This document shows positions 412 to 44,355 of a stretch of DNA of 64,000 nucleotides, piece after piece (position 1 is the first letter of the stretch; every line of letters starts with the position of its first letter). The stretch lies in the NCBI RefSeq assembly GCF_054482595.1, contig NZ_CM137008.1; one strand, given 5' to 3'. The notes beneath the pieces are model-generated. The model was not told the origin of the DNA. It was given only the letters and a program-made list of their open reading frames with translations, and searched no databases. The position numbers and the translations under genes were made by a program.

Positions 412-1419
<1,008 letters not shown>

Positions 1420-1538
1420 CTATTTGTTAGTGAATAAAAGGTTGCCTGTAAAATTACAAAAACCTTACGCAGCGTCAAGCGGAATCGTGTCAATCATTGC
1501 GACAAATCAATCCTGTGCCTAAGCATAACGCGACTGAC

Positions 1539-1568
1539 TCGCCTCACTCTTCCTCGCCTCACTCTTCC
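1539..1568. repeat. Perfect 15-bp tandem direct repeat (tcgcctcactcttcc x2) in the gapA upstream region
   Basis: Two identical adjacent 15-mers read directly from the sequence, about 130-160 bp upstream of the gapA start codon. Confidence 0.8.
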
Positions 1569-1763
1569 TTTGGGCTTGAGACCACATGGGGTCGGCGCCC
1601 CGAATTTTAAAGGGCAATTAAGATAAAAATGTGATTTTCATCACGATTTAGGTGCAGCCATTTCGTCGAGATCAAGTTTAGGACAAAATTTTGCCAGTTG
1701 GTGTTAATGTTTTGTTAGAATCAGTCACGTAATGTGAGCACGATTAAAGTGAGATGTGAGCAA

Positions 1764-2177
1764 ATGGCTAATAAACCTTCGGCAGAAGAACTGAAAAAAA
1801 ATTTGTCCGAGATGCAGTTTTACGTGACGCAGAATCATGGGACAGAGCCGCCATTTACGGGTCGTTTACTGCATAACAAGCGTGACGGCGTATATCACTG
1901 TTTGATCTGCGATGCCCCGCTGTTTCATTCCCAAACCAAGTATGATTCCGGCTGTGGCTGGCCCAGTTTCTACGAACCGGTGAGTGAAGAATCCATTCGT
2001 TATATCAAAGACTTGTCACATGGAATGCAGCGCATAGAAATTCGTTGCGGTAACTGTGATGCCCATCTGGGGCATGTCTTCCCCGACGGGCCGCAGCCAA
2101 CGGGCGAACGTTATTGTGTTAACTCTGCTTCTTTACGCTTCACTGATGGCGAAAACGGCGAAGAAATCAATGGTTGA
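1764..2177 (+). CDS. msrB: Peptide methionine sulfoxide reductase MsrB
   Basis: Translation [21 protein letters not shown]... with two CxxC zinc motifs ([19 protein letters not shown]) and catalytic RYCVNSASL; start taken at MANKP (137 aa). Confidence 0.92.

Positions 2178-34445: not shown

Positions 34446-34449
<4 letters not shown>
33415..34449 (+). CDS. astA: Arginine N-succinyltransferase
   Basis: 344-aa ORF ([19 protein letters not shown]...); ATGA overlap with the astC stop. Confidence 0.92.
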
Positions 34450-38259
<3,810 letters not shown>

Positions 38260-42999: not shown

Positions 43000-44355
43000 A
43001 TGAGTAATGTTATTGCATCGCTTGAAAAGGTACTCCTCCCTTTTGCAGTTAAAATAGGAAAGCAGCCACACGTTAATGCAATCAAAAATGGCTTTATTCG
43101 CTTAATGCCGTTAACCCTTGCGGGGGCCATGTTTGTATTAATTAACAACGTTTTTCTAAGCTTTGGGGAGGGGTCGTTTTTTTATTCCTTAGGTATTCGC
43201 CTCGACGCCTCCATTGAAACACTTAATGGTCTGAAAGGTATTGGCGGCAACGTATATAACGGAACATTAGGGATAATGTCTTTAATGGCACCGTTCTTTA
43301 TTGGCATGGCGCTGGCAGAAGAGCGTAAAGTCGATGCGCTGGCGGCTGGGTTGTTATCCGTTGCAGCATTTATGACCGTCACCCCATATAGTGTCGGTGA
43401 GGCCTATGCGGTTGGCGCAAACTGGTTAGGTGGGGCGAATATCATCTCCGGGATTATTATTGGCCTGGTGGTGGCAGAAATGTTTACCTTTATTGTCCGC
43501 CGCAATTGGGTCATTAAACTGCCCGACAGCGTACCTGCTTCAGTATCGCGTTCCTTCTCGGCATTAATTCCCGGCTTTATTATTCTTTCCGTGATGGGGA
43601 TTATTGCCTGGGCGTTGAATACCTGGGGCACCAACTTCCATCAGATCATTATGGATACCATCTCAACCCCACTGGCATCGTTGGGTAGCGTGGTGGGCTG
43701 GGCCTATGTGATCTTTGTTCCACTGCTCTGGTTCTTCGGTATTCATGGCGCGCTGGCGCTGACCGCACTGGACAACGGCATTATGACGCCGTGGGCGCTG
43801 GAAAATATCGCGACCTATCAGCAATATGGTTCCGTCGAAGCGGCGCTGGCAGCCGGTAAGACCTTCCATATCTGGGCCAAGCCGATGCTGGACTCCTTTA
43901 TTTTCCTTGGGGGCAGTGGTGCGACTTTAGGCCTGATCCTGGCTATCTTTATCGCCTCTCGCCGTGCTGATTATCGTCAGGTGGCAAAACTGGCGCTGCC
44001 GTCCGGCATCTTCCAGATTAACGAACCGATTCTGTTTGGTCTGCCAATTATTATGAACCCGGTGATGTTTATCCCGTTTGTACTGGTACAACCGATTCTG
44101 GCGGCAATCACCCTGGCAGCGTACTACATGGGCATTATTCCTCCGGTGACCAATATTGCACCGTGGACCATGCCAACCGGTCTGGGAGCCTTCTTTAACA
44201 CCAACGGTAGCGTCGCCGCATTGCTGGTTGCACTCTTCAACCTTGGTATCGCAACGTTAATTTATCTGCCCTTTGTTGTGGTGGCTAACAAAGCACAAAA
44301 CGCGATTGATAAAGAAGAGAGCGAAGAAGATATCGCTAACGCCCTGAAATTTTAA
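43000..44355 (+). CDS. chbC: PTS chitobiose-specific EIIC permease
   Basis: 451-aa polytopic ORF of the lactose/cellobiose EIIC family. Confidence 0.92.

What the first reader, a model, noticed from the sequence alone, without database searches (positions are those of the whole stretch)
1539..1568. 15-bp perfect tandem repeat in the gapA regulatory region
tcgcctcactcttcc is present twice in tandem, about 130-160 bp upstream of gapA, in a region that also serves the divergent msrB promoter. Short tandem duplications in promoters can change spacing of regulator sites and are prone to copy-number slippage.
Basis: seen in the sequence. Interest (0 to 1): 0.25.

Follow-up and report, generated by a model that had tools for sequence, protein, structure and literature searches.

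The report
Private 15-bp duplication upstream of gapA
This E. coli strain carries a recent 15-base tandem duplication between the main and the upstream promoters of the glycolysis gene gapA; it was found in no other genome searched, is probably a slippage mutation with little or no effect, and is notable mainly because it breaks a promoter spacing that enterobacteria otherwise keep almost constant.

Summary
Window 1539-1568 holds two perfect head-to-tail copies of TCGCCTCACTCTTCC, 132-161 bp upstream of the gapA start codon.

It is not a conserved regulatory repeat. It is a derived insertion.
- All 5,425 complete E. coli genomes with this intergenic region have one copy (341 bp against 356 bp here).
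- All 77 metagenome contigs and the nearest draft relative also have one copy.

Published start sites place the repeat at -96 to -125 of the main promoter P1. That is +8 to +37 of the sigma-32 promoter P2, so it lies in the leader of P2-P4 transcripts. All core promoter elements, the CRP site and the near-invariant P1 block are intact. Predicted ribosome-site accessibility is unchanged.

The one-copy ancestor has a 2-bp direct repeat at the junction, which fits slippage (microhomology-mediated tandem duplication). This is a common class of strain-specific variant in E. coli.

One point is noteworthy. The CRP-site-to-P1 spacing is 150-153 bp in 50 enterobacterial species and 166 bp here. A regulatory effect cannot be excluded.

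The same window holds a second derived tandem duplication: 34 bp, truncating astD.

Verdict: real, ordinary in kind, low interest.

The parts
1539..1553 (-). Copy 1 of the 15-bp unit, proximal to gapA (gapA-strand sequence GGAAGAGTGAGGCGA). It corresponds to the single ancestral copy at -146..-132 from the ATG.
   Evidence: alignment to K-12.
1554..1568 (-). Copy 2 of the unit, the extra 15 bp that is absent from all other genomes examined. Which copy counts as 'new' is arbitrary.
1538..1569 (.). Full extent of period-15 identity (32 bp). The extra 2 bp (CT on the plus strand, AG on the gapA strand) is the microhomology that flanks the unit in the one-copy ancestor.
   Evidence: Tandem Repeats Finder, 2.1 copies; K-12 sequence ...CCCAA AGGAAGAGTGAGGCG AG TCAG....
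1443..1478 (-). gapA P1 core promoter: start site A at 1443 (-36 from ATG), -10 AATTTT at 1450-1455, TG extension at 1457-1458, -35 TTGACG at 1473-1478. Intact. The repeat lies at -96..-125 from this start site.
   Evidence: Promoter sequence and -36 start site from PMC2759082 Table 1, mapped on the window.
1575..1612 (-). gapA P2 (sigma-32): start site G at 1575, -10 CCCCATGT at 1584-1591, -35 CTTTAAA at 1606-1612. Intact. The repeat lies at +8..+37 of its transcript.
   Evidence: PMC2759082 Table 1, P2 at -153 in K-12; it is -168 here.
1596..1645 (-). gapA P3 start site (1596) and its CRP site TGTGATTTTCATCACG (1630-1645, centred at -41.5 from P3). Intact but moved 15 bp further from P1.
   Evidence: PMC2759082 Table 1, P3 at -174 and Crp-regulated; site read from the sequence; spacing measured.
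1667..1667 (-). gapA P4 start site (-245 in K-12, -260 here).
   Evidence: PMC2759082 Table 1, mapped.
412..1407 (-). gapA coding sequence (glyceraldehyde-3-phosphate dehydrogenase A).
   Evidence: Annotation of K-12, W619 and XH990.
1764..2177 (+). msrB coding sequence, divergent from gapA.

Best explanation
The second copy is a recent, lineage-private tandem duplication of 15 bp in the msrB-gapA intergenic region. It most likely arose by replication slippage or flap misprocessing at a 2-bp microhomology (microhomology-mediated tandem duplication). It lies between the strong housekeeping promoter gapA P1 (at -96 to -125) and the start site of the heat-shock promoter P2 (at +8 to +37). It has two direct consequences. 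It adds 15 nt to the leaders of the minor P2, P3 and P4 transcripts. It also moves the whole upstream module (P2, P3 with its CRP site, P4) 15 bp, about 1.4 helical turns, away from P1. No core promoter element, CRP site or ribosome-binding region is altered, so the most likely outcome is little or no change in gapA expression (inferred, not shown). A perfect 2 x 15 bp repeat should be less stable than single-copy sequence and able to revert (inferred from published work on such duplications).
For: Shown:
- The two copies are perfect and adjacent.
- K-12 has 341 bp and one copy, and the only length difference is this 15 bp.
- None of the 5,425 complete E. coli genomes carrying the region has the insertion. 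The best identity to the window is 95.8% (341/356), the junction query never spans 70 bp, and a K-12 query gives at least 99% identity in 5,417 genomes, with the weakest at 98.5% and a 341-bp span.
- The 30-mer has no hit in metagenome contigs, while a flank-gap-flank pattern finds 77 contigs, all with a 15-bp gap.
- The closest complete genomes (W619, XH990) and the draft GCA_021915125.1 differ from the window in this stretch only by the 15 bp plus 1-3 SNPs.
- The ancestor has the dinucleotide AG at both ends of the unit.
- Promoter positions come from PMC2759082 Table 1.
- Folding P2, P3 and P4 leaders with one or two copies leaves the probability that the Shine-Dalgarno-to-AUG region is unpaired at 0.45-0.47.
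- No promoter-like site is created at the junction.
- A published working 'gapA P1' promoter fragment starts at GAGGCGAGTCAG, inside the proximal copy, so sequences upstream of the junction are not required for P1 to function (PMC3831814).
- Strain-specific tandem duplications are frequent in E. coli: about 13,000 variable loci, mostly with microhomology (bioRxiv 10.64898/2026.02.28.708716).
- A second derived perfect tandem duplication (34 bp, with 8-bp microhomology) lies in astD in the same window. It is present on 16 independent public contigs, so such events are real in this lineage.
Against: - The allele is seen in this one sequence only. I could not inspect reads or the draft genomes of the sister clone.
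- Two bp of microhomology is weak evidence (1 in 16 by chance).
- Neutrality is not shown. The CRP-site-to-P1 -35 distance is 150-153 bp in 50 enterobacterial species, even where the intervening sequence has diverged, and 166 bp here. The msrB-side spacing varies more, 112-127 bp. This argues that spacing across the insertion site is under selection, so the insertion may have an effect.
Confidence: 0.7

Rival explanations
1. The duplication is a functional regulatory variant. By moving the CRP/P2-P4 module 15 bp (about 0.43 of a helical turn out of phase) from P1, it changes gapA expression, and it may have been selected in this lineage.
For: The CRP-to-P1 spacing is held at 150-153 bp and the sigma-32 -10 to P1 spacing at 97-100 bp across 50 species. 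This includes Serratia, where the unit itself is unrecognisable. The window's values are 166 and 113 bp. The total intergenic length is 334-350 bp in 44 species and 356 bp here, and the msrB-side spacing is looser. No indel longer than 5 bp occurs in 5,425 E. coli genomes.
Against: All core elements are intact. P1 functions without anything upstream of the unit (PMC3831814). P1 provides the only transcripts detected on glucose (PMC2759082). There is a single carrier genome. The allele co-occurs with other private indels, which suggests mutation pressure rather than selection. No expression data exist.
Confidence: 0.2
2. The extra copy is an assembly, sequencing or editing artefact of this particular sequence and does not exist in the organism.
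For: It was found in no other dataset searched. A second change private to this sequence, a 3-bp deletion in chbC, is also not on record anywhere. About half of the window-private differences are indels.
Against: Over 64 kb the window differs from W619 by only 5 SNPs and has no homopolymer-type errors. The duplication is perfect, in register and flanked by microhomology. The neighbouring 34-bp astD duplication, of the same kind, is confirmed on 16 independent contigs including a metagenome assembly.
Confidence: 0.1
3. The site is a contingency (phase-variable) repeat, or a conserved two-site operator whose copy number toggles gapA or msrB expression.
Against: There are only two copies of a long unit. 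The locus has one copy in 5,425 genomes, 77 metagenome contigs and all 41 Enterobacteriaceae sequences where it is recognisable, always at -146 or -145. It is not inside any promoter spacer. Its conservation, 0.63, is no higher than that of its flanks.
Confidence: 0.02

Closest known systems
Microhomology-mediated tandem duplications ('variable TD loci') in microbial genomes (Dan et al. 2021, PMC8639346; Wei et al. 2026, bioRxiv 10.64898/2026.02.28.708716)
   Same: A single-copy segment flanked by a short direct repeat becomes a perfect two-copy tandem in one strain only. About 13,000 such loci are reported for E. coli. They are reversible by slippage.
   Different: The microhomology here is only 2 bp. 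About half of reported loci have more than 3 bp, and 25-30% have none. The origin is inferred from sequence and was not observed.
The E. coli gapA multi-promoter region P1-P4 (Charpentier & Branlant 1994; Thouvenot et al. 2004; positions as tabulated in PMC2759082)
   Same: Same locus. All four promoters, the CRP site and the leader are present and unchanged in sequence.
   Different: This allele has 15 extra bp between P1 and the P2 start site. This variant is not described in the papers I could read and is absent from all other genomes searched.
Engineered helical-phase (spacing) mutants of activator-dependent promoters, such as CRP site displacement experiments (recalled from general knowledge, not tested here)
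   Same: An insertion of a non-integral number of helical turns between an upstream protein-binding module and a core promoter.
   Different: It is natural rather than engineered. The CRP site is about 180 bp from the P1 start site and acts on P3, and no dependence of P1 on it has been shown.
Simple-sequence contingency loci in promoters of Haemophilus, Neisseria and Mycoplasma (general knowledge)
   Same: A tandem repeat in a regulatory region that could change copy number by slippage.
   Different: The unit is long (15 bp), there are only two copies, there is no population polymorphism, and it is not in a -35/-10 spacer.

Membership tests
Strain-specific microhomology-mediated tandem duplication | The segment is single-copy in close relatives and in the species at large. 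| tested here: met
   One copy in 5,425 complete genomes, 77 metagenome contigs and the nearest relatives W619, XH990 and GCA_021915125.1.
Strain-specific microhomology-mediated tandem duplication | Two adjacent head-to-tail copies with 100% identity and no spacer. | tested here: met
   Tandem Repeats Finder: period 15, 100% matches, 0 indels.
Strain-specific microhomology-mediated tandem duplication | A direct repeat (microhomology arm) flanks the unit in the one-copy ancestor. | tested here: met
   The arm is 2 bp (AG...AG on the gapA strand), giving a 32-bp array of 2.1 copies. This is weak, since a 2-bp arm is expected by chance 1 time in 16.
Strain-specific microhomology-mediated tandem duplication | The allele is physically present in the organism, not an assembly error. 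| not testable with these tools
   No reads are available. There is indirect support from the clean 64-kb comparison and from the confirmed astD duplication.
Phase-variable contingency repeat | Copy number is polymorphic among closely related strains. | tested here: not met
   The locus is uniformly one copy everywhere else, and no 3-copy or 0-copy allele was found.
Phase-variable contingency repeat | The repeat lies in a promoter spacer or reading frame, so that copy number switches expression. | tested here: not met
   It lies at -96..-125 of P1 and +8..+37 of P2, outside every -35/-10 spacer.
Conserved direct-repeat operator for a transcription factor | Two copies are conserved in orthologous promoters. 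| tested here: not met
   There is one copy at -146 or -145 in all 41 Enterobacteriaceae sequences. The unit's conservation of 0.63 is about equal to its flanks at 0.55-0.64.
Dispersed repetitive extragenic element (REP/BIME/ERIC-like) | Many copies per genome, usually palindromic. | tested here: not met
   There is no other copy in the window and one place per genome. The unit is not palindromic.
Known structured RNA (Rfam) | A match reaching the family's gathering score. | tested here: not met
   The only hit is twister-P1 at 21.1 bits against a gathering score of 67.2, E = 0.068.

The most novel reading that the evidence does not exclude
The gapA upstream region is a phase-locked composite promoter. 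The distance between the CRP/P2-P4 module and P1 is functionally constrained: it is 150-153 bp across Enterobacterales regardless of the intervening sequence. On this reading the 15-bp duplication is a natural spacing mutant that measurably alters gapA expression or its heat-shock or catabolite response, and it may have been selected in this lineage.
Probability: 0.2. Interest if true: 0.4.

Novelty: new member of a known kind. Interest (0 to 1): 0.2.

Why it matters
In itself it matters little. It is one more strain-specific short tandem duplication, a variant class already catalogued by the thousand in E. coli. Its modest value is as a ready-made natural experiment. It inserts 1.4 helical turns into a stretch of the gapA control region whose length is almost invariant in more than 5,400 E. 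coli genomes and about 50 enterobacterial species. Comparing one-copy and two-copy alleles would test whether the upstream promoters and CRP site are functionally coupled to the main promoter P1. gapA is also widely used as a 'constitutive' reference gene and its promoter as an expression part, so a naturally altered promoter is worth knowing about in this strain.

Tried and rejected
- **Known RNA families.** An Rfam scan of 1300-1900 gave only a far-sub-threshold twister-P1 hit, which I treated as chance.
- **New promoter at the junction.** The scan found none. Its single hit is inside the gapA start region on the other strand.
- **Leader structure and translation.** Folding the P2, P3 and P4 leaders with one or two copies predicted no change at the ribosome-binding site. 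A predicted 13-pair hairpin involving the last 5 nt of the unit has an invariant 3' arm and non-compensating changes in the 5' arm across genera, so I did not pursue it.
- **Small ORFs across the repeat** (37 aa on the plus strand, 32 aa on the minus strand). Neither product is on record in public gene calls.
- **Finding the source genome or sister genomes with the allele.**
  - The exact 30-mer has no hit in metagenome contigs.
  - The private ChbC variant is not on record.
  - The lookup with the window's YdjH variant (R62), which is not private to this genome, returned a one-copy relative.
  - The astD-duplication clone (16 contigs) could not be inspected at gapA, because astD is 33 kb away and the flanks are capped at 10 kb.
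- **Primary gapA promoter papers** (PMC205121, PMC1134079, PMC107748). These are not held. I took positions from PMC2759082 Table 1 instead.
- **Position of the Cra site at gapA.** I could not obtain it. The text says only 'downstream of the gapA promoter', and no supplements are held.
- **First cross-species conservation estimate.** It was biased because I had selected sequences by similarity to the unit. I redid it with unit-independent selection.

Full report
**Observation**

Window 1539-1568 reads TCGCCTCACTCTTCC twice with no spacer. Tandem Repeats Finder reports 1538-1569, period 15, 2.1 copies, 100% matches, score 64. The 15-mer, allowing up to two mismatches, occurs nowhere else in the 64 kb. 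Dinucleotide-preserving shuffles give 0.04 matches on average and never two. The repeat is real and not a chance match.

**Context**

gapA is on the minus strand (412-1407, ATG at 1407). msrB is on the plus strand (1764-2177). These assignments follow the annotation of K-12 and of the two closest complete genomes.

**The repeat is a derived insertion**

- The intergenic region is 356 bp here and 341 bp in K-12. The alignment shows a single 15-bp gap at the repeat plus two SNPs.
- Against 5,426 complete RefSeq E. coli genomes, 5,425 carry the region. The best identity to the window is 95.8%, exactly 341/356, and every listed hit spans 341 bp.
- With a 70-bp query centred on the junction, no record spans 70 bp. 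The 33 'full-coverage' hits are two overlapping pieces spanning 55 bp, which means one copy.
- With K-12's 341 bp as query, 5,417 genomes are at least 99% identical. The weakest is 98.5% with a 341-bp span, so no genome has an indel longer than 5 bp.
- The two-copy 30-mer has no match in the metagenome contig collection.
- A flank-N{15,45}-flank pattern finds 77 contigs, all with a 15-bp gap, which serves as a positive control.
- The window's nearest complete relatives (W619, XH990, O157:H16 Santai and others) are 99.9% identical over 25 kb, with a record span of 24,985 bp.
- Base-by-base, the only differences from W619 in the first 35 kb are three SNPs and this 15-bp insertion.
- The draft genome GCA_021915125.1, which shares a YdjH variant with the window, differs over 18 kb only by the 15 bp and one SNP.

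**Position relative to known promoters**

The primary papers were not held. Table 1 of PMC2759082 reproduces the four gapA promoters of Charpentier & Branlant:

| Promoter | Note | Start site in K-12 (from ATG) | Window coordinate (minus strand) |
|---|---|---|---|
| P1 | main promoter | -36 | 1443 |
| P2 | sigma-32 | -153 | 1575 |
| P3 | Crp-regulated | -174 | 1596 |
| P4 | | -245 | 1667 |

- The repeat occupies -96 to -125 relative to P1 and +8 to +37 relative to P2.
- The P1 elements are untouched: -35 TTGACG at 1473-1478, TG at 1457-1458, -10 AATTTT at 1450-1455.
- The P2 elements are untouched: CTTTAAA at 1606-1612 and CCCCATGT at 1584-1591.
- The CRP site is untouched: TGTGATTTTCATCACG at 1630-1645, centred at -41.5 from P3.
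- The insertion has two effects. It lengthens the P2-P4 leaders by 15 nt, and it moves the upstream module 15 bp (about 1.4 helical turns) away from P1.

**Likely origin**

In the one-copy sequence the unit AGGAAGAGTGAGGCG is followed by AG. This 2-bp direct repeat is why the array measures 32 bp rather than 30. It fits slipped misalignment, that is, microhomology-mediated tandem duplication. Two bp is only weak evidence, being expected 1 time in 16 by chance.

A 2026 preprint reports about 13,000 strain-specific tandem-duplication loci in E. coli. Of these, 25-30% have no microhomology and about half have more than 3 bp. Such duplications revert about 100 times faster than they form in fission yeast, and they were detected in the E. 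coli genome at a lower frequency than in yeast (PMC8639346).

**Is the unit a functional element?**

A scan of species-representative genomes for the first 26 nt of gapA returned 120 loci.
- In every Enterobacteriaceae sequence where the unit is recognisable (41 distinct sequences), it is single and sits at -146 or -145. It is exact in E. albertii, Citrobacter, Salmonella arizonae and Phytobacter.
- Those sequences had been selected by similarity to the unit, so I repeated the analysis with 78 sequences chosen only on the P1 block:

| Segment | Conservation |
|---|---|
| 15-bp unit | 0.63 |
| Flanks of the unit | 0.55-0.64 |
| CRP site | 0.72 |
| Sigma-32 -10 | 0.80 |
| -106..-37 block | 0.94 |
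| P1 leader | 0.99 |

The unit behaves like linker sequence, not like a binding site.

**Predicted consequences**

- Folding the P2, P3 and P4 leaders with one or two copies leaves the downstream structure unchanged. The probability that the Shine-Dalgarno-to-AUG region is unpaired stays at 0.45-0.47.
- No promoter-like hexamer pair is created at the junction.
- Rfam gives only a sub-threshold twister-P1 hit, 21 bits against a gathering score of 67.
- A published, working 'gapA P1' expression fragment begins at GAGGCGAGTCAG, inside the proximal copy. P1 therefore does not need anything upstream of the junction (PMC3831814).
- On glucose only P1 transcripts were detected (PMC2759082).

Together these points favour a small or null effect. 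That conclusion is inferred, not measured.

**A reason for caution: spacing is conserved**

| Distance | Other species | This window |
|---|---|---|
| CRP-like site to P1 -35 | 150-153 bp (mode 151), 50 species | 166 bp |
| Sigma-32 -10 to P1 -35 | 97-100 bp | 113 bp |
| msrB ATG to CRP site | 112-127 bp, 44 species | |
| Whole intergenic length | 334-350 bp, 44 species | 356 bp |

The 50 species include Serratia, Acerihabitans and Shimwellia, where the intervening sequence has diverged beyond recognition. Spacing across the insertion site therefore looks selected. The duplication places this strain well outside the natural range and nearly on the opposite helical face. This keeps open the reading that the allele has a regulatory effect. 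I put that at about 0.2.

**Artefact?**

I cannot see reads.

Against an artefact:
- Over 64 kb the window differs from W619 by only five SNPs and three indels, with no homopolymer noise.
- One of those indels is a perfect 34-bp tandem duplication in astD (35512-35587), bounded by an 8-bp direct repeat. It is absent from all complete genomes. Its exact truncated product is encoded on 16 independent public contigs, including a metagenome assembly. Duplications of this kind are therefore real in this lineage.

For an artefact:
- The gapA duplication and a 3-bp chbC deletion are unique to this sequence.

I put the artefact reading at about 0.1.

**Verdict**

The allele is a new member of a well-known class of mutation, located in a very well-characterised promoter region. 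Interest is low. The one testable point is the conserved spacing that it breaks.

Noticed in passing
window 35512-35587 (inside astD, window 34446-35958): A second perfect tandem duplication: period 34, 2.2 copies, score 152, bounded by an 8-bp direct repeat CGTTGCTG in the ancestor. It shifts the astD reading frame at codon 370 and stops at 375 of 492, so the gene is truncated. It is absent from all complete RefSeq E. coli genomes, but the exact 374-aa product is encoded on 16 public contigs (for example GCA_958334905.1 and ERZ15849865), which marks a circulating clone.
   Followed up: yes
window ~43208-43212 (chbC): An in-frame 3-bp deletion (AAC) removes Thr72 of the chitobiose PTS IIC protein, relative to W619 and to the astD-duplication clone. 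The resulting 451-aa protein is not on record in the public gene-call collection.
   Followed up: partly
whole window compared with L002, L003, L201, L202 and L204: Differences from the nearest relatives are 5 SNPs (3679, 7450, 32774, 52790, 63344) against 3 indels (+15, +34, -3). Where the very closest relatives are available, the window-private changes are 2 SNPs and 2 indels. This indel share is unusually high. It could reflect a mutational bias of the lineage, selection, or sequence quality.
   Followed up: partly
window 1408-1513 (gapA -106..-1) and 1473-1645: The 106 bp upstream of gapA (the P1 promoter, its upstream 70 bp and the leader) is 94-99% invariant across 78 Enterobacterales species chosen on that block. 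The CRP-site-to-P1 distance is fixed at 150-153 bp in 50 species, although the sequence between them diverges. The invariant stretch GATTGATTTGTCGCAATGATTGACACGATTC upstream of the P1 -35 looks like an uncharacterised binding region.
   Followed up: partly
window 1552-1612, minus strand: A sub-threshold Rfam hit to the twister-P1 ribozyme (21.1 bits, gathering score 67.2, E = 0.068). It overlaps the repeat and the GGGGCGCCGACCCC palindrome in the P2 spacer. Judged to be chance.
   Followed up: partly
E. coli genome searches: Two plasmid records carry a copy of the msrB-gapA intergenic region, and one of the 5,426 genomes lacks it altogether. Neither was examined.
   Followed up: no
window 1713-1721, plus strand: TGTTAGAAT, an extended -10-like sequence about 43 bp upstream of the msrB ATG, is the likely msrB core promoter. 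If so, the shared CRP site would lie near -92 from its start, a class I-like position. This is inferred from sequence only.
   Followed up: no
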